Origin: a virus
Direction: 5' to 3' (one strand)
Virus record (IMG/VR): IMGVR_UViG_3300034284_000578
Location: 1 to 64,000 of that record
Length of the DNA: 64,000 nucleotides
The position numbers and the translations under genes are program-made. Shown piece by piece: positions 6,930 through 16,000 of the stretch. The first letter of the stretch is position 1. Every line of letters begins with the position of its first letter. Under the pieces are notes generated by a model, which ran no database searches, was not told the origin of the DNA, and saw only the letters and a program-made list of their open reading frames with translations.

Positions 6930-7991
6930 ATGAAAGTTGAAGATGATGTGAAGTTGGATTTTGCTGATGTACTAATTCGACCAAAACGAAGTGAACTAAA
7001 CAGTCGTAAAGAAGTTTCACTTTCACGCAGATTTGATTTTGACAGTTCTGGAATGCATGTTGCTTGGGATGGAATTCCTATTGCAGCGGCAAATATGAGT
7101 GGTATTGGTACTTTTTCTGTTGCAGAAAAACTATCTCAACACAGAATGTTAACTTGCATTCATAAGTTTTACACAGAAGAAGAGTGGATGAAAAATTACG
7201 ACAAACAACTTGTAAGCAATCCAGACCTTGATTGCTTTGTTTATAGTATGGGAATGGGTTCAAATTCTTACGAAGAAATCGTTAAAGCAACCAATATTCT
7301 CGATTATTGCTCTGCTGTAAAATTTATTTGTATTGATGTTGCAAACGGTTACACGCAAAAGTTTGTAGAATATGTTTCAACTATTCGTAAAATTTTTCCC
7401 GGTAAGATTTTAATTGCTGGCAATGTAGTAACCCGTGAAATGACAGAAGCATTAATTCTTGCTGGTGCAAATATCGTAAAGGTAGGAATTGGTCCTGGCT
7501 CAGTTTGCACTACTCGCAAGGTTGCTGGTGTTGGATATCCCCAACTGTCGGCAATTATGGAATGTGCCGATGCCGCACATGGTCTTGGTGGGCATATCAT
7601 GGCTGATGGTGGTTGCATATGCCCAGGTGATGTTGCAAAGGCATTTGGTGCCGGTGGCGATTTCGTGATGCTTGGTGGTATGTTTGCGGGCTCTGATGAA
7701 GCAGCACAACATGATGAATCTGGAAACAGAGTGTTTTACGGAATGTCATCAGAAACCGCAATGAACAAGTTTTCTGGCGGTGTAGCCACTTACCGAGCGT
7801 CAGAGGGTAAGACTATCAAGGTTAAGCAAACTGGTCCAATCGACAATACCGTTCAGGAAATTCTTGGTGGTGTTCGTTCGGCTTGCACCTATGTTGGCGC
7901 CAAGCGTCTGAAGGATCTGCCAAAGTGTACGACATTCGTTCGGGTAAACCGCCAAATCAATTCCGTATTTAATGGACAGGAAATTGCTTGA
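6930..7991 (+). CDS. guaC: GMP reductase
   Basis: KLDFADVLIRPKRS, DVANGY, KVGIGPGSVCTTR, GYPQLSA, YRASEGK motifs. Confidence 0.95.
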   Translation: MKVEDDVKLDFADVLIRPKRSELNSRKEVSLSRRFDFDSSGMHVAWDGIPIAAANMSGIGTFSVAEKLSQHRMLTCIHKFYTEEEWMKNYDKQLVSNPDLDCFVYSMGMGSNSYEEIVKATNILDYCSAVKFICIDVANGYTQKFVEYVSTIRKIFPGKILIAGNVVTREMTEALILAGANIVKVGIGPGSVCTTRKVAGVGYPQLSAIMECADAAHGLGGHIMADGGCICPGDVAKAFGAGGDFVMLGGMFAGSDEAAQHDESGNRVFYGMSSETAMNKFSGGVATYRASEGKTIKVKQTGPIDNTVQEILGGVRSACTYVGAKRLKDLPKCTTFVRVNRQINSVFNGQEIA

Positions 7992-8015
7992 CAAACAACG
8001 GAAATGCAGTATAAT
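7988..8015 (+). promoter_or_regulatory. Sigma70-type promoter
   Basis: TTGACA-N16-TATAAT. Confidence 0.8.
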
Positions 8016-8020
8016 TATGA

Positions 8021-8298
8021 GCATGACAGGAAACACAGTACCTTCAACGGAGTGTTAACAATGATTACTATTTAAATGTTTTGAACCTTTTTATTATGTA
8101 ATGTTAGCACATCGCGTGTGCATTTGATGGAGTATCAAGTCTCATAGAATGCATCCGATCAGGACAAGGTGTGAGGAACACCCCCTAGCAACTAAAACGA
8201 GATTGTGAAGGTTGCGGAAGGTTTTTGAGAGGACTTGTCTCTCAAGTGTGTAGAAAAGTTTACGGATAACTTTCTACATAACTACGAAACCGTCATAA
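8021..8298 (+). ncRNA. Unassigned multi-stem structured RNA (~280 nt)
   Basis: No ORF; nested long-range pairings plus several hairpins; starts at a consensus promoter. Confidence 0.55.
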
Positions 8299-8328
8299 AG
8301 TTTACGGTTCTTTACAAAACCGTTTCAC

Positions 8329-8401
8329 GCCTCTATAGCTCAGTTGGCAGAGCATTCGGCTTTTAACCGATAGGTCGCAGGTTCGACCCCTGCTGGAGGC
8401 A
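8329..8401 (+). tRNA. tRNA-Lys(TTT)
   Basis: Full cloverleaf, anticodon loop CTTTTAA. Confidence 0.95.
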
Positions 8402-8474
8402 CTTCCAAAAGCAAATAAACTTAACGGCAGAGTTTATTTGTGTTTAAGTGAATGCCGGTTTGAAAGGTTTCGTT

Positions 8475-8729
8475 ATGACAACTATTACTAAGAAGGATCG
8501 TGTACTTAACTATCTCCACAGCGGTCGTGGTCTTACTTCCGCACAGGCTCGCAGGCTCTTCGGTGTGAAGAACTTCCGCGCCACCATCAGTAACATCAAG
8601 GAGACTGTTGAGCGTTACGGCAACTGGCGTATTGTTTCGCACACGAACCGCGACGGCGACACTCGCTACTTCATGAAGCGCGTGGCTCTCGTTGGTCCTT
8701 CTAACTACACCGTTGGCGGCTGCCGCTAA
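8475..8729 (+). CDS. Winged-helix DNA-binding protein
   Basis: KDRVLNYLHSGRGLTSAQARRLFGVKNFRATIS wHTH pattern; GAAAGG SD. Confidence 0.75.
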   Translation: MTTITKKDRVLNYLHSGRGLTSAQARRLFGVKNFRATISNIKETVERYGNWRIVSHTNRDGDTRYFMKRVALVGPSNYTVGGCR

Positions 8730-8754
8730 TCGGTAAATCCTCGGGTTGAGGGTT

Positions 8755-8790
8755 GAAGGAGCGGAGCATAAATAACTCCGCTCTTTCTTT
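8755..8790 (+). terminator. Terminator hairpin with CATAAATA in its loop
   Basis: GAAGGAGCGGAG-CATAAATAA-CTCCGCTCTTTC-TTT. Confidence 0.65.
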
Positions 8791-8792
8791 AA

Positions 8793-8863
8793 TGCCCTGT
8801 GATGTAACGGTAACATGGGAGGCTTTGAACCTCCTCTTCTTGGTTCGAATCCAAGCGGGGCAG
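8793..8863 (+). tRNA. tRNA-Gln(TTG)
   Basis: Cloverleaf, loop CTTTGAA. Confidence 0.93.
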
Positions 8864-8865
8864 TT

Positions 8866-8937
8866 GCCACTTTAGCTCAATGGTAGAGCAGTGCTTTTGT
8901 AAAGCACAGGTTGCGGGTTCGAGTCCAGTAAGTGGCT
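8866..8937 (+). tRNA. tRNA-Thr(TGT)
   Basis: Cloverleaf, loop TTTGTAA. Confidence 0.92.
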
Positions 8938-8957
8938 TTTCTGAATAAGGAGATGTT

Positions 8958-9143
8958 ATGGAAGGTAAACACGGCGCTGGTAAAGGTGATGCTTATCGCC
9001 GAGTAGACTGGGATAAGTATTCAGAAAACTATGACAGAATCTTTGGAAAGAAAGGAAATGACAATGATTCAACTAGTAGGATTGACGACGGGCGAACAAC
9101 TAATCGCAAAGGTAGAGCAACAGGAAAACGGTCTTCTTCTTAA
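8958..9143 (+). CDS. Small phage protein (GKGD..R..D...Y..NYDRIF)
   Basis: AAGGAG SD; motif recalled from T4-like phages. Confidence 0.65.
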   Translation: MEGKHGAGKGDAYRRVDWDKYSENYDRIFGKKGNDNDSTSRIDDGRTTNRKGRATGKRSSS

Positions 9144-9372
9144 GAAGGCTGCCATTCTTGTTCCGGCAGGTAAGGGAGAACTCGGAATGGCTCCGTGGAT
9201 TCCTTATGGTGAGATTGAGAATGGTATTTTGGTCCGCTGGAACGCAATTGCTTGGCATGTTGATGCTAAGATGGATCTTGCAAATCACTACAACAGTGCA
9301 TTTGGCAATGGCTTGGTTGTTCCGGTGCAGCAAGAAGTTGTTGCTCCTGAACTAAAATTAGTTGAAGGTTGA
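9058..9372 (+). CDS. Sm-like fold phage protein
   Basis: IQLVGLTTGEQLIAKV...MAPWIPY...YNSAFG pattern. Confidence 0.6.
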   Translation: MTMIQLVGLTTGEQLIAKVEQQENGLLLKKAAILVPAGKGELGMAPWIPYGEIENGILVRWNAIAWHVDAKMDLANHYNSAFGNGLVVPVQQEVVAPELKLVEG

Positions 9373-9420
9373 TTCAACTTCTGATATAATGCGGGTATGA
9401 AAGTGCCCGCATTATTCTTT

Positions 9421-9494
9421 GTTCCCGTAGCTCAGTTGGATAGAGCATTCGCCTTCTAAGCGAATGGTCAGTGGTTCGAATCCACTCGGGAACG
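9421..9494 (+). tRNA. tRNA-Arg(TCT)
   Basis: Cloverleaf, loop CTTCTAA. Confidence 0.95.
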
Positions 9495-9513
9495 CTTTGA
9501 AAGGGTTTATATT

Positions 9514-9969
9514 ATGATTACAACAACATCTACAATTTACGGCGAAGGTCAGCGTTTCACTTCTTCAAACTATCAGGGTTCAACTTACATGGGTGTTTCG
9601 TACACACTACCACTTAAGTTTGATGGCTCTTTGAGCATGACTACTGAAACTAAAGAAGCAATTGAAATGCCAACGGTTAGTAATTATACCAATACGGCTA
9701 CTCCGTTCTTTATGGGTTCATTTGATGGTTTTTGGATTCATAAGTTGTATCGTGAGGGTAATTTGGTGTATACTGTACAGGGTGTAGATCAGGATATGTT
9801 TTTACCAATTGCACACGATTATGTTGAAAGTGTCGCAATGATTACTGCCGGAAATGAAAGTATTCCGTGTCCCGATTGCCCTGTTCGTCCGCCAGTACCA
9901 GCACCGAGCGTGTCCGTTATGCTTGGTGTTGCGGCTTTGTTTGCGATCTCGCGTAAGCGAAAGATTTAA
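9514..9969 (+). CDS. Protein with a PEP-CTERM-like (VPAP) sorting tail
   Basis: C-terminal VPAPS + hydrophobic helix + RKRK. Confidence 0.7.
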   Translation: MITTTSTIYGEGQRFTSSNYQGSTYMGVSYTLPLKFDGSLSMTTETKEAIEMPTVSNYTNTATPFFMGSFDGFWIHKLYREGNLVYTVQGVDQDMFLPIAHDYVESVAMITAGNESIPCPDCPVRPPVPAPSVSVMLGVAALFAISRKRKI

Positions 9970-10347
9970 ATGACTAATACAACTCTCGATTCTTTGCTTG
10001 ATGTTGCTTATCCTATTTGCCTGGATATTCCCAGGCAAAAGAAGCATGTCTCAATTATTGTGCATAAGCACAAGATTGTTTCTGTTGGTATGAATCGTTT
10101 CAAGACTCACCCCAAGGCGAAGGAAATTGGCTATATGTACGAAGAAATGCATTCCGAACTGGACGCATTTCAGAAGATCGAAAAGCGGCTTCTTGGAAAG
10201 AAGTTGCACCTAATCAATATTAGGTTTAATCAATTTGGCGACATGCGTATGGCTCGTCCTTGTGAACTTTGCATGCCTTGGTGTGTTAAGGTTTTTCACA
10301 GCATTCGTTTTACTACAAATGATGGTTTTGAGCAGTTGGCATACTAA
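9970..10347 (+). CDS. Zn-dependent deaminase (CDA/TadA-like fold)
   Basis: HSE...RPCELC motifs; VSVGMN strand. Confidence 0.8.
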   Translation: MTNTTLDSLLDVAYPICLDIPRQKKHVSIIVHKHKIVSVGMNRFKTHPKAKEIGYMYEEMHSELDAFQKIEKRLLGKKLHLINIRFNQFGDMRMARPCELCMPWCVKVFHSIRFTTNDGFEQLAY

Positions 10348-10381
10348 ATAGTTGTGGACATTCTAATAAGGAGATACCTTT

Positions 10382-10741
10382 ATGCGTATTCAGGAAATGT
10401 GTTACGAACTCCGCAATCTCGCCCGCAAGGAAGAAGATTTACCCAAAAAGGATCTCTATTATCAAAGCGCAAAAGCACTTGAAACTTTGTTGAATATGGT
10501 TAAAATGGGCGATCTCATCGTTGCAGAAATGGAAGTATGCAAAAAGAATCCCGACAAGTGCCGTCCATGTGATTGGCAAGCAGAAGCACCCAAAGAATGG
10601 CCAATCAGCGAAGAACCAATCAAAATGATAGATGACTTCATCAAAGAATTGGCAGTGTTCCAATACATTGATCTGAAGGCACGGCACGGAGCAGAGAACG
10701 ATTACGGTTACTGGCACGACAAGCGAGAATATAAAGAATGA
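10382..10741 (+). CDS. Hypothetical protein
   Basis: AAGGAG SD; ACTAAATA upstream. Confidence 0.65.
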   Translation: MRIQEMCYELRNLARKEEDLPKKDLYYQSAKALETLLNMVKMGDLIVAEMEVCKKNPDKCRPCDWQAEAPKEWPISEEPIKMIDDFIKELAVFQYIDLKARHGAENDYGYWHDKREYKE

Positions 10742-11013
10742 CCTACAGATTACACATCGACATTCCAATTAACGGCGACGAAGCGCAAGCACTCGAAGTT
10801 GCACGAGAGATTATTCGTTTTTGCTATGACAATGGCATTTCTGAAAAGAGAATGCGTGAACTTGGTCTAGAGCAAATCAACTACCGTCTTGGTCATGACG
10901 AAGATCGCCAGAAGAGTAACTACTTTATGAAGACTCCTTCTGGCCATGTGAACAACAAAAAGTCCAAGATTGTTTATACTACCTCCTTGACAAACGAAGA
11001 AGAATCAGTATAA
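10738..11013 (+). CDS. Hypothetical protein
   Basis: ATGA overlap with the upstream gene. Confidence 0.65.
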   Translation: MTYRLHIDIPINGDEAQALEVAREIIRFCYDNGISEKRMRELGLEQINYRLGHDEDRQKSNYFMKTPSGHVNNKKSKIVYTTSLTNEEESV

Positions 11014-11014
11014 T
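10987..11014 (+). promoter_or_regulatory. Sigma70-type promoter for tRNA-Ile
   Basis: TTGACA-N16-TATAAT. Confidence 0.75.
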
Positions 11015-11027
11015 ACATCTATAACTT

Positions 11028-11099
11028 GCGCGATGGGCGGACGGTTTTCGCAGGCCGACTTATAATCGGTTCAATCAGGTTCGATTCCTGAATCGCGTA
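11028..11099 (+). tRNA. tRNA-Ile(TAT)
   Basis: GCGCGAT/ATCGCGT acceptor, GCCGA-CTTATAA-TCGGT anticodon arm, TCAGG-TTCGATT-CCTGA T arm. Confidence 0.85.
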
Positions 11100-11102
11100 C
11101 TT

Positions 11103-11303
11103 ATGACACTGCCACAAGAAGAAGTTCAAAGTTTACAAGCAGTTCGTAGATTTCTTTACGATCTACTTGATCCGTCAAAGACTCCTCGCGTCCCTAAGGC
11201 AATTCGGCAGCGAGCGTACAGAGTTTGTAAGCACTTCCCTATGGATTATTCCATAGAACAACGCTACCCGGATGTTTTTCAAAATGACAAGCAAACAATT
11301 TGA
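11103..11303 (+). CDS. Conserved small phage protein (TPRVPKAIRQRA)
   Basis: Motif recalled from T4-like phages. Confidence 0.65.
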   Translation: MTLPQEEVQSLQAVRRFLYDLLDPSKTPRVPKAIRQRAYRVCKHFPMDYSIEQRYPDVFQNDKQTI

Positions 11304-11709
11304 TTTTGAAGATTGGAAAGCAAAGTATCCCCTGTGCTTTAAGAATGAAGGTTGTTGCATTCTTTTTGGTATAGAGTGTGGTATTGGTTGGACTGAAATT
11401 CTTCATGAACTTCTACAAAAGATAGAAAACTATCTTGATGCCAATCGTGATAAGTTTGTGGATGTTGAATTCCCATTCCGCATAGATCAGGTCAAAGAAA
11501 AGTTTGGCACTCTTCGTTTCTATGTTAGTGGTGCCGATAATCAAATTTTTGATTGGATTATTGAAGCGGAAAGAAAGAGTGGCAAGACTTGTGAAGTTTG
11601 TGGTAATCCCGGTCAAGTTTGTGTAACTCAAGGTGGTTTTTGGCTTAAAACAGTTTGCGAAGAACACCGAATGGATCGTTATGTTCCTTACACGGAGGAC
11701 GGCAAGTGA
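11284..11709 (+). CDS. Conserved phage protein (QVKEKFGTLRFY, C-terminal Zn ribbon)
   Basis: GWxxIL, QVKEKFGTLRFY, CEVCG...C..H motifs. Confidence 0.7.
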   Translation: MTSKQFDFEDWKAKYPLCFKNEGCCILFGIECGIGWTEILHELLQKIENYLDANRDKFVDVEFPFRIDQVKEKFGTLRFYVSGADNQIFDWIIEAERKSGKTCEVCGNPGQVCVTQGGFWLKTVCEEHRMDRYVPYTEDGK

Positions 11710-11930
11710 GCGACCAAGAACTCAACGACTTGCTAAAGGAGTTTGACAACCCGCATCATTGCTATCCGCAGAGTTTGGTTGATGCCATCCGCCTGTTGGT
11801 CAAGGAGCGTGACGAGGCGAGGCGCGAGGTGTGCCAGTTCCGATCCACTTCATACCCACATGACATGAAGGAAGTGTATGAAATTGCGGATTCCCGTGGC
11901 TGGGATTGCTTCAAGGAGGGTGGCAAATGA
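11706..11930 (+). CDS. Small phage protein (ERDEARREVC)
   Basis: GTG start after GGAGG; locally higher GC. Confidence 0.55.
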   Translation: MSDQELNDLLKEFDNPHHCYPQSLVDAIRLLVKERDEARREVCQFRSTSYPHDMKEVYEIADSRGWDCFKEGGK

Positions 11931-12472
11931 GCGAAACTCGTAACATCATCGATCACTATCATTACTGGAAGCACGAAGATATTGTTGCAGATCTTGACAC
12001 CAAGCGCAACAACTTTACTGTTCTTTGTAGTAATCTTGGAAATGATTTCAATATTGCTACGGTGATTCGTAATGCTAATGCATTTCTAGCCAACTCCGTT
12101 TGGATTTATGGAAATAAGCAATATGATCGTCGTGGAACTGTCGGTACACACAACTACACCCACTTCCGCCATTTTAAGGAAGATCAAGAAGCAGAACTTC
12201 TAAAGGCAATGCGTGGCATGTATGTTGTTGGAGTTGACAATGTTGGAGATGCTAAGCCAATTGATGAGTTTAGTTGGCCGTGCAGTAAGCCTGTCCTCAT
12301 GATTTTTGGACAGGAGCAGATTGGAATCCCGAAGAAACTGCTTGACTTGTGTGATGAGTTGGTGTATATTAGGCAGTATGGATCAGTGAGAAGTCTAAAT
12401 GTTGGAACAGCCAGCGGTATCGCAATGTACGATTACTGCTCTAAGGTTTGCAACGGAGTGCAAATAGGTTGA
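11927..12472 (+). CDS. SpoU/TrmH-family RNA 2'-O-methyltransferase
   Basis: N-x-A-x-x-x-R-N motif, FGQEQIGI, SLNVGTASGIAMY SPOUT knot motifs. Confidence 0.88.
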   Translation: MSETRNIIDHYHYWKHEDIVADLDTKRNNFTVLCSNLGNDFNIATVIRNANAFLANSVWIYGNKQYDRRGTVGTHNYTHFRHFKEDQEAELLKAMRGMYVVGVDNVGDAKPIDEFSWPCSKPVLMIFGQEQIGIPKKLLDLCDELVYIRQYGSVRSLNVGTASGIAMYDYCSKVCNGVQIG

Positions 12473-12529
12473 TAAATACATTCGCTGGGCCCCGGCGATA
12501 TTATGATGAAGTGATTATTGGGGCTTTCT

Positions 12530-12603
12530 GCACCTATAGATTAACCGGCTAAATCCCCGCCCTTTCAAGGCGGTGACTCGGGGTTCGAGTCCCCGTAGGT
12601 GTA
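12530..12603 (+). tRNA. tRNA-Glu(TTC)
   Basis: Cloverleaf, loop CTTTCAA. Confidence 0.93.
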
Positions 12604-12650
12604 CTAAAGTTAAGATTCTGTTCAAAATATGGTAAGGCAAACATACTTGC

Positions 12651-12917
12651 ATGGAAACAATACTACTTTCGATATCAGGTCTGTGCGCTATCATTGCCTT
12701 TCAAATTTGGTACTATAGAACTGCTTATCACAATGGTTATCAAGATGGAAACCATAGTGGCATCAGTCAAGGGCTCTTTATGGCAAAAGAGCGTGAAAAC
12801 AAGCGGTCGTCGTATAATGGCTCATTACGCGGGTTTTCCAAACCCGACATGAGAGTTCGATTCTCTCCTACCGCACTTTATGATGACAAAACTAATAAAA
12901 TCAAGATACGGAGTTAA
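12651..12917 (+). CDS. Small membrane-anchored protein whose 3' part overlaps tRNA-Gly
   Basis: N-terminal TM helix followed by AYHNGYQDG. Confidence 0.5.
   Translation: METILLSISGLCAIIAFQIWYYRTAYHNGYQDGNHSGISQGLFMAKERENKRSSYNGSLRGFSKPDMRVRFSPTALYDDKTNKIKIRS
12803..12875 (+). tRNA. tRNA-Gly(TCC)
   Basis: Cloverleaf, loop TTTCCAA; one acceptor-stem mismatch. Confidence 0.85.
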
Positions 12918-13140
12918 TCGCCTCATTACAGAAGAAGCGGACGGTTCCCTGACAATTGAAGGGGAATCTCTGTTCTATCGTTGCTCTGGCAACGAGAAGG
13001 ATCTAGAGATGTTCGACTTTGAAGGTGGACCATTTTTAATGGTCGGAGATCCTATGATGGAGTTCGAAGGCACCATCAAGTCGATTGAATTGCTAGAATC
13101 CAAAGACAACAATGTTAGAATAAAAGTGAGATGTGAATGA
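12880..13140 (+). CDS. Hypothetical protein (FDFEGGPFL)
   Basis: ORF track; motif recalled from phages. Confidence 0.6.
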   Translation: MMTKLIKSRYGVNRLITEEADGSLTIEGESLFYRCSGNEKDLEMFDFEGGPFLMVGDPMMEFEGTIKSIELLESKDNNVRIKVRCE

Positions 13141-13310
13141 GCGAACACATAGAACAACGACTAAGAAATATGGCTAATAAATGGCACGATGCAAACCGCG
13201 AGGTGTTTGAAGTTTGCCGTGATGCCGCAGAAGAGATTCGCGTACTTAGAGAAATACAGAAGGTAAAAAATGAATATGGATCACAACGACTGGTTGAAGG
13301 AGCAGACTAA
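13137..13310 (+). CDS. Small protein, 57 aa (MSEHIEQRLR...DAAEEIRVLR); not in the ORF track
   Basis: ATGA overlap with the upstream gene; AA-x-EI-x-x-LR phage motif. Confidence 0.6.
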   Translation: MSEHIEQRLRNMANKWHDANREVFEVCRDAAEEIRVLREIQKVKNEYGSQRLVEGAD

Positions 13311-13509
13311 TCGCTCTCCTGAGCGTTCTTGGGAGTTTGAAGATGTTTTGATGAATAATCAAGCATTGCGTTTGCGTAATCAAATGTTGGAAATTGAAAA
13401 CGATAAGTTACGTGAACGAGTTTTAAATTTAGAAAAAGAAATTTCTCAAATTAAGCGCGAGGCCATGCAAAAGTTTCAAAATGGTTGGGGAAAGGGTAAG
13501 GATGAGTAA
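13270..13509 (+). CDS. Coiled-coil hypothetical protein
   Basis: ORF track; heptad pattern. Confidence 0.6.
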   Translation: MNMDHNDWLKEQTNRSPERSWEFEDVLMNNQALRLRNQMLEIENDKLRERVLNLEKEISQIKREAMQKFQNGWGKGKDE

Positions 13510-13774
13510 CGAAGAAAAGATTAAGCAACTTGAAGAAGAAAATAAGAAACTTAGAGAAACTATGTTCCGCGCATGGGCTATCCTCGTAGACTATGATGGA
13601 TACTACAGCGAAACGCTAAAAAAGGGCGATGTGCATGGATTGGCTTCTATTGTAAAAGAAGCAGTGCATATTCTAAATACTCCTCGCCGCGACGCACTTG
13701 ATAGACTGGCACAATTAGATGAAGAACTTGGTCTATATGACGACTTTATAAGCGATCAAAAGGAAATGGACTAA
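13502..13774 (+). CDS. Hypothetical protein
   Basis: ORF track; start at MSNEEK. Confidence 0.6.
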   Translation: MSNEEKIKQLEEENKKLRETMFRAWAILVDYDGYYSETLKKGDVHGLASIVKEAVHILNTPRRDALDRLAQLDEELGLYDDFISDQKEMD

Positions 13775-13782
13775 ATAATCTT

Positions 13783-14133
13783 TGGTATTGTTGATATTGG
13801 ATTGAAATGCGAACAACACAGGGGTTCGATTCCCCTCGGCTCCATTAGCCTAACCGAAATAGATTCTGCAAGTCTATTAGAGATGGCGAGTAAAGTCCTC
13901 TTTGCAGGGGGCAATTCCTGAAGCCCGGGCTTCAGGTATTTAAGGGGCTGAACTGGCTTCGATTGGCGCAGAGTAATGAAGAAGGAGATACCCGACACGG
14001 GTAACAAGTGTCGTAAATAAACAGTTGCAAAAATTGATTGCCGCACCAATGGCAATGGCTGCTTGAAGCAGTGGGGTCTGATCCACCCGCGACTGAACGG
14101 ATCACGGTTGTTGGGGAGAAATCCTCAACAACC
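13783..14133 (+). ncRNA. ssrA: Circularly permuted (two-piece) tmRNA
   Basis: Acceptor piece ...GGGGTTCGATTCCCCTCGGCTCCA ends at 13844, before the coding piece GGGGCTGAACTGGCTTCGA starting at 13944; G3.U70 pair; PK1-like CCCGACACGGG...GTGTCG; tag ...GCC GCA CCA ATG GCA ATG GCT GCT TGA. Confidence 0.88.
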
Positions 14134-14135
14134 AC

Positions 14136-14164
14136 TTGCATTGAAGACAGAGGCATGATATAAT
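14136..14164 (+). promoter_or_regulatory. Sigma70-type promoter
   Basis: TTGCAT-N17-TATAAT upstream of the tRNA-Leu pair. Confidence 0.65.
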
Positions 14165-14173
14165 ACAGTTCAC

Positions 14174-14256
14174 GCCCGCATGGTGGAATGGCAGACACAG
14201 CGGATTCAAAATCCGCTGCCCTAAGAAGCGTGTAGGTTCAAGTCCTACTGCGGGTA
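14174..14256 (+). tRNA. tRNA-Leu(CAA)
   Basis: Cloverleaf with long variable arm, loop TTCAAAA. Confidence 0.93.
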
Positions 14257-14260
14257 CTAC

Positions 14261-14334
14261 GGCACGGTAGACCAATCGGCAGAGTCAATAGACTTAAAAT
14301 CTGTGTAGTGTGGGTTCGAGTCCCACCCGTGCTA
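14261..14334 (+). tRNA. tRNA-Leu(TAA), short variable loop
   Basis: Cloverleaf, loop CTTAAAA. Confidence 0.88.
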
Positions 14335-14337
14335 CTT

Positions 14338-14526
14338 ATGAATCCAAAGTATTACACAATCGAACGAATCAACAAGGCGCTACTAGAATTGTCTACGCCT
14401 CGTGCTTTAATGCACGAATATACTACTGATAGTATTGTTGATTTATTAAATGATGTTCGTGATGAGTTGATGGGATTTTATCACAAACAGGATATTCGTC
14501 GTAGATTCGACGAGGAGAGCGGTTAA
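14338..14526 (+). CDS. Hypothetical protein
   Basis: Start revised to the ATG after the tRNA. Confidence 0.55.
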   Translation: MNPKYYTIERINKALLELSTPRALMHEYTTDSIVDLLNDVRDELMGFYHKQDIRRRFDEESG

Positions 14527-14747
14527 TGGCTAAGGGAAAAATTAAAAACAAAAACAAGAAGCCAACTGCAAACGAAGAGTATTATTTTGTTGCACATGTT
14601 GATGCCAACGGAGAAGTAACATCATTACTTTTAACTGATGTTGAATATAACCGAGCAAAGATAAGAGCAGAGAACAATCCAGAAGATGTACCGGAACATT
14701 TTATTGTGTTCCATCAGGAGCATAAAGATGGCAAAGAAGAGAGTTAA
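14526..14747 (+). CDS. Hypothetical protein
   Basis: TAATG coupling; LLLTDVEYNRAKIRAENNPED. Confidence 0.6.
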   Translation: MAKGKIKNKNKKPTANEEYYFVAHVDANGEVTSLLLTDVEYNRAKIRAENNPEDVPEHFIVFHQEHKDGKEES

Positions 14748-15099
14748 AAAGTCTATTGATAAAATTACAAAATTATGGTCACCAAAAGGTGCCATCAATT
14801 GGGTTTTAGATGAAACTTTTGATAAGTTTACATTCCGTTTGAAGTACGCACCAATTGCTGTTCTTCTAGAAGAACACGGTTACTTGAGAGAAGCCCAAGG
14901 TTGTCTTATTGAACAACATAAGGGCGAAACCAAGAATTATTATGATAACCCAAAGCGCAAAGATTTGCAAATTCGTATTGAATTTGTAGAAGAAAAGATT
15001 ATGGCAAAGTATTATGGGCTTCAAGATGCCATTGAGCGCATGGACTATTATGACTCATTAGAAGCCAGAACGAAACAAGAAAAGACAGAAGAAAAATGA
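14728..15099 (+). CDS. Hypothetical protein
   Basis: Start at MAKKRV after AGGAG. Confidence 0.6.
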   Translation: MAKKRVKKSIDKITKLWSPKGAINWVLDETFDKFTFRLKYAPIAVLLEEHGYLREAQGCLIEQHKGETKNYYDNPKRKDLQIRIEFVEEKIMAKYYGLQDAIERMDYYDSLEARTKQEKTEEK

Positions 15100-15476
15100 A
15101 TACTTTGTTTGTAGATGATAGTACTGAGCGTTGGAGTGAATATTCCAAGCAAGCAACAGAAATGAATTGGTGTGCGGCTTGGGCTATCAACTATAATGCT
15201 GCAACTAATGGTTTTGGTTATCGCCAATACGATATTGTGTTTTTAGATCACGATCTTGGTGAAGAGGATAAGACCGGTTATGATGTTGCAAAATACATGG
15301 TAGAGCATAATATTAAGTGTGGTATGGTCGTTGTTCATACCATGAATCCTGTTGGTGGAAACAACATACATACTTTGCTTCAGAATTTTGGTTACAAAAT
15401 TCTTAAAGTTGCCGGTTGTTGGAATGATCCGGTACTGATGAGAAGTTTGGACGGAATTTTGAGAAACATTCCCTGA
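15096..15476 (+). CDS. Cyclic-phosphate-processing receiver (REC-like) domain protein
   Basis: LFVDD, FLDHDLG, TGYDV, VHTMNPVG motifs. Confidence 0.75.
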   Translation: MNTLFVDDSTERWSEYSKQATEMNWCAAWAINYNAATNGFGYRQYDIVFLDHDLGEEDKTGYDVAKYMVEHNIKCGMVVVHTMNPVGGNNIHTLLQNFGYKILKVAGCWNDPVLMRSLDGILRNIP

Positions 15477-15542
15477 TAGCTCAGTTGGTAGAGCGGCGAG
15501 CTGTTAACTCGCATGTCACTGGTTCGAGTCCAGTTCGGGGAG
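15470..15542 (+). tRNA. tRNA-Asn(GTT)
   Basis: Cloverleaf, loop CTGTTAA. Confidence 0.95.
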
Positions 15543-15559
15543 TTTTCTTTTATATTTAA

Positions 15560-15632
15560 GCCCGAGTAACTCAGCGGCTAGAGTGCTTCCTTTACACGGA
15601 AGAAGTCGTCGGTTCGATCCCGACCTTGGGTA
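15560..15632 (+). tRNA. tRNA-Val(TAC)
   Basis: Cloverleaf, loop TTTACAC. Confidence 0.95.
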
Positions 15633-15636
15633 TTTT

Positions 15637-15718
15637 GCGAGTGTACTCAAGCGGCAACGAGGACAGACTGTAAATCTGTTGTCATTCGACTTCGGGGGTT
15701 CGAGTCCCTCCGCTCGCA
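15637..15718 (+). tRNA. tRNA-Tyr(GTA)
   Basis: Cloverleaf with variable arm, loop CTGTAAA. Confidence 0.93.
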
Positions 15719-15722
15719 TTCT

Positions 15723-15811
15723 GCGTAGTTCAGTTAACGCTGACTAGAATCGCCTACTTGCAAGGGGTGATTTGATACAGAGCAACAGAGGTGCAAGTCC
15801 TCCACTACGCT
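15723..15811 (+). ncRNA. Non-canonical tRNA-like RNA with a TGC anticodon loop
   Basis: Perfect GCGTAGT/ACTACGC acceptor; 8-bp anticodon-like stem around CTTGCAA; T arm GAGG-TGCAAGT-CCTC. Confidence 0.65.
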
Positions 15812-15814
15812 TTT

Positions 15815-15904
15815 GGATAGATGGCCGAGTGGTTTAAGGCTGCGGTTTACTAAACCGCCGTAGGTACTAGATACTTACCGGGGGTTCGAATCCCTCTCTA
15901 TCCG
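15815..15904 (+). tRNA. tRNA-Ser(ACT)
   Basis: Ser-type long variable arm, G73, GCGGT-TTACTAA-ACCGC anticodon arm. Confidence 0.88.
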
Positions 15905-15906
15905 TT

Positions 15907-15980
15907 CGGAGAGTAGCACAGTTTGGTAGTGCGCCTGGTTTGGGACCAGGAGGTCGCAGGTTCAAATCCTGTTTCTCCGA
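15907..15980 (+). tRNA. tRNA-Pro(TGG)
   Basis: Cloverleaf, loop TTTGGGA. Confidence 0.95.
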
Positions 15981-16000
15981 CTATTATAAATACTGGCACT

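What the first reader, a model, noticed from the sequence alone, without database searches (positions are those of the whole stretch)
8017..8325. Unknown ~280-nt multi-stem ncRNA heading the tRNA operon
Seen: ORF-free sequence starting directly after TTGACA-N16-TATAAT. Nested long-range pairs are ATGAC-A-GG/CC-GTCAT (closing the ends), ACCTTCA/TGAAGGT, GTTTTG/TAAAAC and TGTTAG/CTAGCA. Local hairpins include GCACA-TCGCG-TGTGC, GGTGT-GAGGA-ACACC, TTGAGAG...CTCTCAA and TGTAGAAA...TTTCTACA. I recognise no RNase P, SRP, 6S or intron signature. Known: large structured RNAs such as GOLLD and ROOL sit beside phage tRNA arrays. Inference: an undescribed early-expressed structured RNA.
Basis: partly seen in the sequence, partly recalled or inferred. 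Interest (0 to 1): 0.75.

Follow-up and report, generated by a model that had tools for sequence, protein, structure and literature searches.

The report
Conserved structured leader RNA before tRNA-Lys
A roughly 310-base RNA made from a strong early promoter just ahead of a phage tRNA-Lys gene is a real, conserved, folded RNA matching no known family, and it begins with a tiny ribosome-ready 4-codon reading frame; its job is unknown.

Summary
A perfect sigma-70 promoter (7988-8015) drives about 308 nt of RNA ending at tRNA-Lys (8329). There is no Rfam match, even at E<=10.

I collected 19 distinct homologous sequences in 5-6 clades of uncultivated T4-like phages. Every complete copy sits behind a promoter matching at least 10 of 12 consensus bases.

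- **Supported by compensatory changes:** the 3' half (8158-8326) is a row of hairpins (P0/P1, P2, P3, P4, P5). The covariation score is 0.430 against 0.206+-0.016 in shuffles (0 of 500 reach it).
- **Invariant:** two GUUUACGG loops and two AACCGU tracts. They probably pair as pseudoknot(s) or bind a factor.
a conserved Shine-Dalgarno sequence plus an ATG or GTG mini-ORF of 2-7 codons (MITI in the window, 8061-8075).

The transcription unit is leader, tRNA-Lys, winged-helix gene, then a conserved terminator. It is not the whole tRNA array.

There is no homology to GOLLD, ROOL or the T4 species 1/2 RNAs. No expression data could be obtained, so function rests on inference. The scan has not noted this element on other DNA.

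The parts
7988..8015 (+). Sigma-70-type promoter, TTGACA (7988-7993), 16-nt spacer, TATAAT (8010-8015). The start site is inferred near 8021-8023.
   Evidence: 12 of 12. A promoter matching at least 10 of 12 stands at the same place in every complete homolog. A near-copy lies at 10986-11014, just before tRNA-Ile.
8049..8052 (+). Shine-Dalgarno GGAG, 8 nt upstream of the mini-ORF start codon.
   Evidence: GGAG, GGAGG, AGGAG or GAGG lies 6-8 nt before the start in all 19 homologs, although the spacer sequence differs between clades. The same core motifs precede 16 of 43 phage genes, against an 8.7% background.
8061..8075 (+). Mini-ORF ATG ATT ACT ATT TAA (MITI, then stop).
   Evidence: Homologs encode MITI, MYLLIVS, MYIN, MYIK, MYSI, MHSI, MINM or ML. 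The start is ATG, or GTG in L089 and L096. The peptide is not conserved; the SD, start and short length are.
8076..8157 (+). A+U-rich linker, then variable hairpins. A hairpin (P-1) stands directly before ATCRGG in each clade, with unrelated sequences.
   Evidence: Examples: L005 GTGTTT/GAACAC, L041 GGTTTGTTTC/GAGACAAACT, and a 10+ bp stem in L090. The P-1 hairpin of the L050 clade (CGTACC/GGTACG) was read by eye; the fold did not return it. The window's own version (8107-8153) is clade-specific.
8161..8186 (+). P0 (AGG 8161-8163 with CCT 8184-8186) enclosing hairpin P1 (GGTGT 8168-8172 with ACACC 8178-8182).
   Evidence: the outer P0 pair is A-U in 13 sequences and G-C in 6, and the other two pairs are kept in all 19. 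P1 forms in all 15 sequences folded, with different sequences and lengths.
8188..8215 (+). P2, GCAACT with GGTTGC (6 bp including an invariant U.G). Its 16-nt loop holds the conserved RAGAWUG (GAGATTG at 8199-8205).
   Evidence: The L041 clade has AGACCT/AGGTCT and L090 has GAACCT/GGGTTC. Three of the 6 pairs show changes on both sides.
8225..8245 (+). P3 hairpin, TTGAGAG with CTCTCAA, loop GACTTGT.
   Evidence: 7 of 7 pairs change on both sides and 93% of cells are paired. CTGAGAAG/TTTCTCAG, GGAAGA/TCTTCC, TCGAGT/ACTCG and GCATTC/GAGTGC in other clades.
8249..8278 (+). P4 long hairpin (outer stem TGTAG/CTACA, bulge, inner stem AAAG/CTTT). Its apical loop carries the first invariant GUUUACGG (8258-8265).
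   Evidence: at least 6 different stem versions all pair. Examples: CGACGCGGAAAG/CTcTTTCGCGTCG in the L041 clade and CGACaAGGCAAG/CTaTGCCTaGTCG in L090. GTTTACGG is invariant in all 19.
8288..8293 (+). First invariant AACCGU tract.
   Evidence: Invariant columns. CCGU can pair with either ACGG.
8297..8313 (+). P5 short hairpin (AAAG 8297-8300 with CTTT 8310-8313). Its loop carries the second invariant GUUUACGG (8300-8307).
   Evidence: helix 7: one pair is A-U in 9 sequences and G-C in 9. Stems are AAAG/CUUU, GAG/CUC or GGG/CCU across clades. Support is weaker than for P0-P4.
8318..8323 (+). Second invariant AACCGU tract, 5 nt before the tRNA. With ACGGTT (8304-8309) it can form a 6-bp hairpin in the window.
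   Evidence: In the L050 clade a 35-nt extra hairpin is inserted between ACGG #2 and this tract, and RNAfold still pairs them.
8329..8402 (+). tRNA-Lys(UUU). Its 5' end is where RNase P would release the leader (an inference).
   Evidence: ARAGORN; Rfam tRNA 69.3 bits. It is present after the element in every clade with enough flank. It is atypical in L042 and L089.
8475..8729 (+). Gene for an 84-aa winged-helix-like protein, always downstream of the tRNA-Lys.
   Evidence: Pfam HTH_39 at 21.2 bits (cut-off 21.3). Homologs are 60-99% identical. It was used to collect the loci.
8758..8790 (+). Intrinsic-terminator-like hairpin (GGAGCGGAG, 9-nt loop, CTCCGCTC, then TTTCTTT) that closes the cassette 3 nt before tRNA-Gln.
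   Evidence: a G+C-rich hairpin sits at this position in all 9 loci tested (4 clades). A T-rich tail clearly follows it in most; L041 has ATTATCC instead.

Best explanation
This is a new family of structured leader RNA, about 308 nt long.

**How it is made.** It is transcribed from a consensus sigma-70 (early-type) promoter as the first part of a cassette: leader, tRNA-Lys(UUU), winged-helix gene, terminator. The cassette occurs in one sub-clade of uncultivated T4-like phages. One copy comes from river surface water.

**What is shown:**
- The promoter and the absence of any conserved ordinary ORF.
- A conserved SD + ATG/GTG + 2-7 codon + stop unit at the 5' end.
- An A+U-rich linker.
- A row of hairpins (P-1, P0/P1, P2, P3, P4, P5), each kept by compensatory changes.
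- Four invariant tracts: GUUUACGG in the P4 and P5 loops and two AACCGU.

**What is inferred:**
1. Ribosomes load on the mini-ORF. What matters is occupancy of the 5' end, not the peptide. The likely effect is protection of the 5' end.
2. The ACGG and CCGU tracts pair. The neatest option is a compact H-type pseudoknot: CCGU, 2-4 nt, P5 5' arm, UUU, ACGG, 2-4 nt, P5 3' arm.
3. RNase P cleavage at the tRNA 5' end releases the leader as a separate, stable RNA.
4. The freed RNA acts through its invariant loops by binding a protein or RNA partner.

My odds: a real, selected, structured RNA on the + strand, about 0.9. Released and acting in trans, about 0.45. Acting only in cis on its own transcript, about 0.3-0.35.
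For: - Promoter 12 of 12, and at least 10 of 12 in all complete homologs.
- No Rfam family at E<=10.
- 19 distinct homologs, found by two independent routes: the neighbouring protein and a DNA pattern.
- Covariation on the model-fitted alignment. The score is 0.430 against 0.206+-0.016 in shuffles (0 of 500), and at most 0.204 with partners slid. There are 114 doubly changed cells against 42+-7. P3 covaries at 7 of 7 pairs.
- Each block folded on its own gives the same hairpins, with different sequences, in 15 sequences.
- No frame is conserved. Indels between clades are not multiples of three, and the L005 frame stops in the window.
- The mini-ORF is present in all 19 sequences, with ATG-to-GTG start changes and divergent spacers. 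The chance of any SD + start in a shuffled 5' region is 0.06-0.33 per sequence.
- This phage uses the same SD cores.
- In the L041 clade a second promoter lies between the element and the tRNA, yet the element and its own promoter are kept. That argues the element has value beyond being the tRNA's leader.
- The element is single-copy in the window.
Against:
- The homologs fall into only 5-6 lineages. The alignment used for counting was fitted to a structure derived from the window, so the statistics lean towards that structure.
- P5 and the pseudoknot rest on invariant bases, which say nothing for or against pairing.
- L041 folds no better than shuffles (z = -0.06).
- G.U against A.C counts favour the + strand only modestly (51 to 33).
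- A 4-codon ORF has no obvious role in a trans-acting RNA.
- Nothing identifies a binding partner.
Confidence: 0.6

Rival explanations
1. The element is a cis-acting elongation-control leader. The nascent hairpins and conserved single-stranded tracts would make RNA polymerase resistant to termination, in the manner of HK022 put, lambda nut or the rrn boxB-boxA-boxC leader. Alternatively they simply deny Rho a loading site. Either way, transcription would pass the terminator at 8758-8790 and run into the poorly translated tRNA array.
For: - The element starts right after an early promoter and lies upstream of a conserved terminator that sits 3 nt before the next tRNA.
- It has two tandem hairpins with invariant loops, each followed by an invariant single-stranded tract.
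- The window has GUUCUUUACAAAA (8307-8319) and the L005 clade has GAUCUUUAAAAC. From my recall, these resemble rrn boxA (GCUCUUUAACAA / GUUCUUUGAAAA).
- HK022 put is a precedent for a protein-free phage antiterminator RNA (PMC9378689, abstract).
Against: - The boxA-like stretch is not kept in the L041 clade (GAUCUCCUAAAAA) or the L050 clade.
- In the L041 clade a second promoter lies downstream of the element, and a twin promoter stands at 10987 in the window. Both would launch unmodified polymerases.
- The 4-codon ORF has no part in known antitermination leaders.
- No N-like or Q-like gene was identified.
Confidence: 0.2
2. The two invariant loops imitate an anticodon loop with A34, that of tRNA-Arg(ACG): U-UUACGG-N. 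They would be edited by, or would soak up, an enzyme that reads such loops. Candidates are host TadA, the phage's own CDA-fold deaminase (9970-10347), or a host anticodon nuclease.
For: - UACG is invariant in both apical loops.
- TadA needs UACG within YUACGAA in a stem-loop, and sites one base off the heptamer are still edited (PMC12255301, read). UUACGGA is one base off.
- The array encodes a small HSE...PCELC deaminase-like protein and a tRNA-Ser with A34 whose anticodon arm reads GGUUUACUAAACCG.
Against: - The loops are 9-11 nt, not 7. Where the window can close a 7-nt loop, UACG is out of register.
- The base after GG varies (A, U or G), so the heptamer is often two bases off.
- The deaminase gene is also present in 4 of 5 related phages that lack the element.
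- The invariant AACCGU tracts are left unexplained.
- Titrating TadA would do little within one infection cycle.
Confidence: 0.07
3. The element is a leader-peptide attenuator. Ribosome position on the mini-ORF, or alternative ACGG/CCGU pairings (1:2 and 3:4 against 2:3), would decide whether transcription stops before tRNA-Lys.
For: - There is an SD + mini-ORF at the 5' end.
- Two ACGG and two CCGU tracts can pair in mutually exclusive ways.
- ACGGUU-N8-AACCGU is followed by UU(U).
- The second promoter before the tRNA in the L041 clade could be a bypass of such a stop.
Against: - The would-be terminator stem is only 4-6 bp, with 3 G-C pairs and a tail of 2-4 U (UUUC, UUUU, UUCU, UUGA). The terminator scan did not call it.
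- The mini-ORF ends about 225 nt before it, so a ribosome cannot influence it directly.
- The mini-ORF codons share no amino acid or tRNA across clades.
Confidence: 0.06
4. The invariant tracts act at the DNA level. ACGG...CCGT inverted repeats would be operators for the neighbouring winged-helix protein, which would autoregulate the cassette. The RNA hairpins would be secondary.
For: - The winged-helix gene always accompanies the element.
- The tracts are invariant, as protein-contacted bases usually are.
- In the L041 clade ACCGT flanks and sits inside the second promoter.
- Soil contigs L088 and L098 hold clusters of AACCGTT/AACGGTT.
Against: - The spacing between the ACGG and CCGT halves varies from 6 to 47 bp between clades. 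That fits RNA loops, not a dimeric operator.
- This does not explain five covarying helices or the conserved U.G pair.
- The HTH_39 match is just under the cut-off.
- Homologs of the protein occur in phages without the element.
Confidence: 0.05

Closest known systems
T4 small stable RNAs, species 1 and 2 (rnaC, rnaD)
   Same: They are RNAs of unknown function encoded inside the tRNA gene cluster of a T4-type phage, next to a tRNA (T4 record NC_000866). From my recall, they are co-transcribed with the tRNAs and cut out by the tRNA-processing enzymes.
   Different: They lie at the downstream end of the T4 cluster, after tRNA-Arg. They are 139 and 119 nt long and have no mini-ORF. Model R1 finds nothing on their strand (best hit 7.8 bits, elsewhere and on the other strand).
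GOLLD and ROOL large ornate RNAs
   Same: They are structured RNAs of unknown function, often found in phages or prophages beside tRNA genes (PMC5737381 and bioRxiv 10.1101/2024.12.08.627333, listed).
   Different: No Rfam match at any threshold tried. By my recollection GOLLD is about 800 nt and ROOL about 580 nt, against about 310 nt here. The architecture here is a row of hairpins, and there is a translated-looking mini-ORF.
Lambda bar-type minigenes and other 2-8 codon minigenes
   Same: A strong SD, a start codon, a handful of codons and a stop, on a phage transcript. Minigenes of 3-8 codons are known to sequester tRNA as peptidyl-tRNA (PMC2490762, abstract).
   Different: The last sense codon differs between clades (AUU, UCU, AAU, AAG, AUG, CUU), so no single tRNA would be targeted. 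Here the minigene is fused to a conserved structured domain and a tRNA. No toxicity or drop-off was tested.
HK022 put RNA, lambda nut and rrn antitermination leaders
   Same: Conserved stem-loops with single-stranded boxes, placed just after an early or strong promoter and ahead of terminators in a poorly translated operon.
   Different: There is no sequence match. The boxA-like stretch is confined to two clades. The element is 4-5 times longer than put. Promoters downstream of the element bypass it.
TadA substrates (tRNA-Arg2 anticodon arm and edited mRNAs)
   Same: UACG displayed in the loop of a hairpin.
   Different: The heptamer is UUACGGN rather than YUACGAA, and the loop is 9-11 nt instead of 7. 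Editing was not tested.

Membership tests
Any Rfam 15 family (including GOLLD, ROOL, 6S, RNase P, SRP, tmRNA, T-box, riboswitches, ribozymes) | A covariance-model match at or near the family's gathering score. | tested here: not met
   gathering thresholds; E<=10 on 7900-8480. Only the tRNA matches. The other hits score 9-19 bits against cut-offs of 43-172.
GOLLD / ROOL | A large RNA of more than 500 nt with the family's multi-domain ornate fold. | tested here: not met
   The element spans about 308 nt from start site to tRNA. It folds as a row of hairpins.
GOLLD / ROOL | Location in phage or prophage DNA next to tRNA genes. | tested here: met
   This is a context resemblance only.
T4 species 1/2 stable RNAs | Sequence or structure homology to rnaC or rnaD. 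| tested here: not met
   Model R1 run with filters off on T4 69500-74500: best 7.8 bits, not on the rnaC/rnaD strand or position.
T4 species 1/2 stable RNAs | A stable RNA species processed out of a tRNA precursor. | not testable with these tools
Minigene / leader mini-ORF | SD at 5-9 nt, a start codon, at most 8 codons and a stop, conserved in relatives. | tested here: met
   present in all 19 sequences, starting with ATG or GTG, 2-7 codons long.
Minigene / leader mini-ORF | It is actually translated, with peptidyl-tRNA drop-off or a regulatory effect. | not testable with these tools
   This needs a toeprint, ribosome profiling or a reporter assay.
Intrinsic-terminator attenuator | A G+C-rich stem followed by a U-run before the regulated gene. 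| tested here: not met
   One search lists no terminator between 8016 and 8329. The stem is 4-6 bp and the tail is 2-4 U.
rrn / nut-type antitermination leader | A conserved boxA-like single-stranded element in all members. | tested here: not met
   A boxA-like run occurs in the window and L005 clades only. The L041 and L050 clades differ. The boxA consensus is from my recall.
HK022 put-type RNA | A nascent two-stem RNA that acts on RNA polymerase without protein. | not testable with these tools
   Only the position after an early promoter and the tandem hairpins are comparable.
TadA substrate | YUACGAA as a 7-nt loop of a stem-loop (PMC12255301). | tested here: inconclusive
   UACG is invariant. 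The heptamer is 1-2 bases off and the loops are 9-11 nt.

The most novel reading that the evidence does not exclude
The leader is a new kind of phage effector RNA. It would be a ribosome-capped, RNase P-released RNA whose two invariant anticodon-loop-like hairpins (U-UUACGG-N), locked by ACGG/CCGU pseudoknots, act in one of two ways. Either they serve as decoy or substrate for an enzyme that reads tRNA anticodon loops (an A34 deaminase or a defence anticodon nuclease), or they act as a protein-free antiterminator on the host polymerase. In either case it would be a functional partner of the phage tRNA array rather than a passive spacer.
Probability: 0.15. Interest if true: 0.8.

Novelty: new variant of a known kind. 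Interest (0 to 1): 0.58.

Why it matters
Phage tRNA arrays are now read as tools against host tRNA-targeting defences and for codon supply. The RNAs that travel with them remain unexplained: the T4 species 1/2 RNAs have had no assigned function for about 50 years, by my recollection, and GOLLD and ROOL have none either.

This element adds a compact, well-delimited case. It has a consensus promoter that should fire in E. coli, clear covarying helices, four invariant tracts to mutate, and an unusual fusion of a minigene with a structured RNA and a tRNA. It can be tested directly, without the uncultivated host, by in vitro transcription, RNase P processing, structure probing and toeprinting.

Its reach is limited. 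About 20 contigs from one sub-clade carry it, and no function is shown.

Tried and rejected
- **Rfam.** Gathering thresholds and E<=10 gave nothing but the tRNA.
- **GenBank phages.** blastn of the region hit only the tRNA-Lys. tblastn of the winged-helix protein found nothing.
- **Single-motif patterns.** These brought only chance hits beyond the family: L031, L033, L035 and L039.
- **More distant relatives with the winged-helix gene (L009-L029, L052-L080).** No element by nhmmer or by model R1. The gap before their tRNA-Lys holds an ~80-aa ORF. R1 found nothing in five larger related contigs.
- **A looser P2-loop-to-GUUUACGG pattern.** It gave 63 IMG/VR stretches, 52 of them new, none matching R1.
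- **Bacterial and archaeal genomes.** One true hit, on a 9.5-kb scaffold binned as Bacteroidota and L051-like. I read this as probably a phage contig, not host evidence.
- **A coding reading of the 3' half.** Rejected: the frames are not conserved.
- **A CsrA-type GGA sponge.** Rejected by eye: the GGA sites are not conserved between clades.
- **Loop-loop pairing between the P2 and P3 loops.** Not conserved, by eye.
- **Pairing of the invariant tracts with the downstream tRNA-Lys.** Not conserved; the L041 tRNA lacks the complement.
- **RegB cleavage of GGAG.** No REGB_T4 match in the record. The control genomes also gave nothing and the record is only 60% complete, so this is uninformative.
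- **Link to the phage deaminase by co-occurrence.** Not supported.
- **Tools unavailable.** One script timed out.

Full report
**Setting.**
The window is the first 64 kb of a 108.6-kb IMG/VR virus record, estimated 60% complete. Its baseplate wedge protein is only about 35% identical to those of Methylophilales phage Melnitz, Pelagibacter phage Mosig and the cyanomyophages. It is therefore a distant, uncultivated T4-like myovirus.

Positions 8329-15981 hold 14 tRNA genes and a permuted tmRNA (Rfam RF04321, 70.9 bits), interspersed with small ORFs.

**The observation.**
A perfect TTGACA-N16-TATAAT lies at 7988-8015. tRNA-Lys(UUU) starts at 8329. Between them the + strand has no ORF longer than 28 aa.

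cmscan finds no family there, even at E<=10. The stretch folds better than shuffles (z = -3.29). The opposite strand does too (z = -2.93), and one homolog does not (L041, z = -0.06). Thermodynamics alone therefore proves little.

**Homologs.**
GenBank phages hold nothing similar except the tRNA. I used the 84-aa gene downstream of the tRNA as a handle in IMG/VR. I also ran a pattern built from the invariant tracts against IMG/VR, JGI metagenomes and GTDB genomes.

These routes gave 19 distinct sequences in 5-6 clades:
- window, L002, L086 and L085;
- L004, L005, L008 and L087, with L007 as a variant;
- L050, L051 and L093;
- L041, L042, L089, L091, L094 and L096;
- L090.

In IMG/VR the pattern hit only the 11 contigs already identified. 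In the metagenomes three of 15 hits were chance (L088, L098, L092). One copy lies on a 9.5-kb river-water scaffold binned as Bacteroidota, which I read as probably a stray phage contig.

The upstream gene differs between clades: GMP reductase in the window and L050, and small ORFs in L005 and L041. The promoter (at least 10 of 12 in every complete copy), the element, tRNA-Lys and the 84-aa gene always stay together.

More distant phages that keep the 84-aa gene at 47-61% identity lack the element by nhmmer and by covariance model.

**It is not an ordinary gene.**
The 48-aa frame open in L005 is broken in L007 and stops in the window. Indels between clades are not multiples of three.

**Structure.**
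MAFFT misaligns the helices. I therefore built a covariance model of the 3' domain (R1, 167 positions, 34 pairs) and realigned all members to it (A7).

Results on that alignment:

| Measure | Observed | Shuffled | Shuffles as high |
|---|---|---|---|
| Cells forming a standard pair | 78.2% | 65.4+-1.2% | 0 of 500 |
| Cells changed on both sides | 114 | 42+-7 | 0 of 500 |
| Covariation score | 0.430 | 0.206+-0.016 | 0 of 500 |

With the 3' partners slid by 1-3 columns the score is at most 0.204.

- P3 covaries at all 7 pairs.
- The outer pair of P0 is A-U in 13 sequences and G-C in 6.
- P2 covaries at 3 of 6 pairs and keeps a U.G in all 19.

The caveats are real. The alignment was fitted to the structure, the structure came from the window, and the lineages are few.

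As an independent check I folded each block between invariant anchors on its own. This gave the same hairpins (P-1, P0/P1, P2, P3, P4) in 15 sequences, with unrelated stem sequences. P4, for example, has at least six versions. P5 is short and less secure.

**Invariant tracts.**
Four tracts never vary, including in loci found through the protein and so without ascertainment bias. They are GUUUACGG in the P4 and P5 loops (8258-8265 and 8300-8307) and AACCGU (8288-8293 and 8318-8323).

ACGG and CCGU are complementary. Possible arrangements are two loop-to-3'-tail pseudoknots, or a compact H-type pseudoknot of CCGU #1 with ACGG #2 around P5, or the plain hairpin ACGGUU/AACCGU. Invariance cannot discriminate between these.

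The L050 clade has a 35-nt hairpin inserted between ACGG #2 and CCGU #2. RNAfold still pairs the two. That tolerance fits RNA pairing better than a DNA operator.

These appear in the window's MFE but are not conserved. Two of them clash with P0 and P2. The 5'-end-to-3'-segment duplex is no better than shuffles in 11 representatives.

**The mini-ORF.**
Each of the 19 sequences has exactly one good translation-initiation region in its 5' part. It consists of GGAG, GGAGG, AGGAG or GAGG, then 6-8 nt, then ATG (GTG in L089 and L096), then 1-6 further codons and a stop. The products are MITI, MYLLIVS, MYIN, MYIK, MYSI, MHSI, MINM and ML.

The spacers and peptides differ between clades, while the SD, the start and the shortness persist. 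A shuffled 5' region has any such site with probability 0.06-0.33. The same SD cores precede 37% of this phage's genes, against an 8.7% background.

I read this as a translated or at least ribosome-bound minigene. The peptide is unlikely to matter.

**The transcription unit.**
A G+C-rich hairpin follows the 84-aa gene in all nine loci examined. A T-rich tail follows it in most of them; L041 has ATTATCC instead. In the window the hairpin is at 8758-8790, 3 nt before tRNA-Gln.

The unit is therefore leader, tRNA-Lys, winged-helix gene (Pfam HTH_39 at 21.2 bits, just under the cut-off), then terminator.

The L041 clade has a second strong promoter between the element and the tRNA. The window has a twin of the first promoter at 10986-11014, directly before tRNA-Ile.

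**Function (inferred).**
Position and processing logic suggest that RNase P frees the leader from the tRNA. The element and its own promoter are retained where a second promoter serves the tRNA. That favours a role beyond being that tRNA's leader, and I give a trans-acting, factor-binding RNA about 0.45.

The rivals, with my odds:
- A put/nut/rrn-like elongation-control leader, about 0.2. A boxA-like run exists but only in two clades.
- An anticodon-loop mimic, about 0.07. UACG in a hairpin loop is the TadA motif (PMC12255301), but the loop size and heptamer do not fit. The phage's CDA-fold deaminase also occurs in relatives that lack the element.
- A leader-peptide attenuator, about 0.06. There is no credible terminator before the tRNA.
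- DNA operators for the winged-helix protein, about 0.05. The half-site spacing varies from 6 to 47 bp.

**Comparison with known RNAs.**
- T4 rnaC and rnaD sit in the T4 tRNA cluster but are not homologous.
- GOLLD and ROOL share only the neighbourhood.
- Lambda-type minigenes share the SD-start-stop design (PMC2490762).

This is a new RNA family of a familiar general kind: a phage structured RNA of unknown function next to tRNAs. Its unusual feature is the minigene-plus-structured-domain-plus-tRNA composition.

**Limits.**
The host is unknown.

Noticed in passing
window 13784-14066: A permuted (two-piece) tmRNA inside the tRNA array (Rfam RF04321, 70.9 bits against a 47-bit cut-off). ARAGORN also calls permuted tmRNAs in the related loci L011, L020 and L102.
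   Followed up: partly
window 8758-8790: The terminator hairpin after the winged-helix gene carries CATAAATAA in its loop, in both the window and L005 clades. This is one base off the T4 late-promoter motif TATAAATA, and it lies about 18 nt before tRNA-Gln. It may be a late start for the downstream tRNAs.
   Followed up: no
window 10986-11014: A 79%-identical copy of the element's promoter (12 of 12 consensus) lies 13 nt before tRNA-Ile(UAU), with no leader.
   Followed up: partly
L042 2451-2914; L089 (same arrangement): After the element and second promoter lies a tRNA-Lys-like sequence (anticodon loop CUUUUAA) that ARAGORN does not call. In L042 it is followed by a ~118-aa ORF with HNH-type Cys/His motifs. 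This looks like a homing endonuclease inserted beside an altered tRNA; L089 was read only as far as the tRNA-like sequence.
   Followed up: no
window 9970-10347: A 125-aa protein with HSE...PCELC (cytidine/adenosine deaminase-type zinc motifs) and no Pfam hit at E<=0.01. Homologs at 56-66% identity occur in 8 of 10 related phage contigs, with or without the element.
   Followed up: partly
window 15814-15905; also L050, L051, L102: A tRNA-Ser with anticodon ACU (A34). Its anticodon arm GGUUUACUAAACCG shares GUUUAC and AAACCG with the element's invariant tracts.
   Followed up: no
L011, L013, L016, L017, L020, L021, L023 (gap between tRNA-Gly and tRNA-Lys); L041 2251-2520: A conserved ~80-aa ORF (MSKRELK...VDTYSIDEVEDLIDRL...) fills the space before tRNA-Lys in relatives that lack the element. 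In L041 a small ORF with a similar tail lies just upstream of the element.
   Followed up: no
L113, L117, L119, L121 and about 30 other IMG/VR loci: The loose pattern CCGTAAAC-N-CCDTYWCAWTCTY matched many contigs with an identical 68-nt span. This suggests an unrelated conserved sequence, perhaps a gene. None matches model R1.
   Followed up: partly
L088 / L098 (soil or rhizosphere metagenome contigs): Clusters of AACCGTT/AACGGTT and GTTTACGG motifs lie within a long inverted repeat (CCCCAAGCTTCAGCTTGGGG ... CCCCAAGCTGAAGCTTGAGG). They are not related to the element.
   Followed up: no
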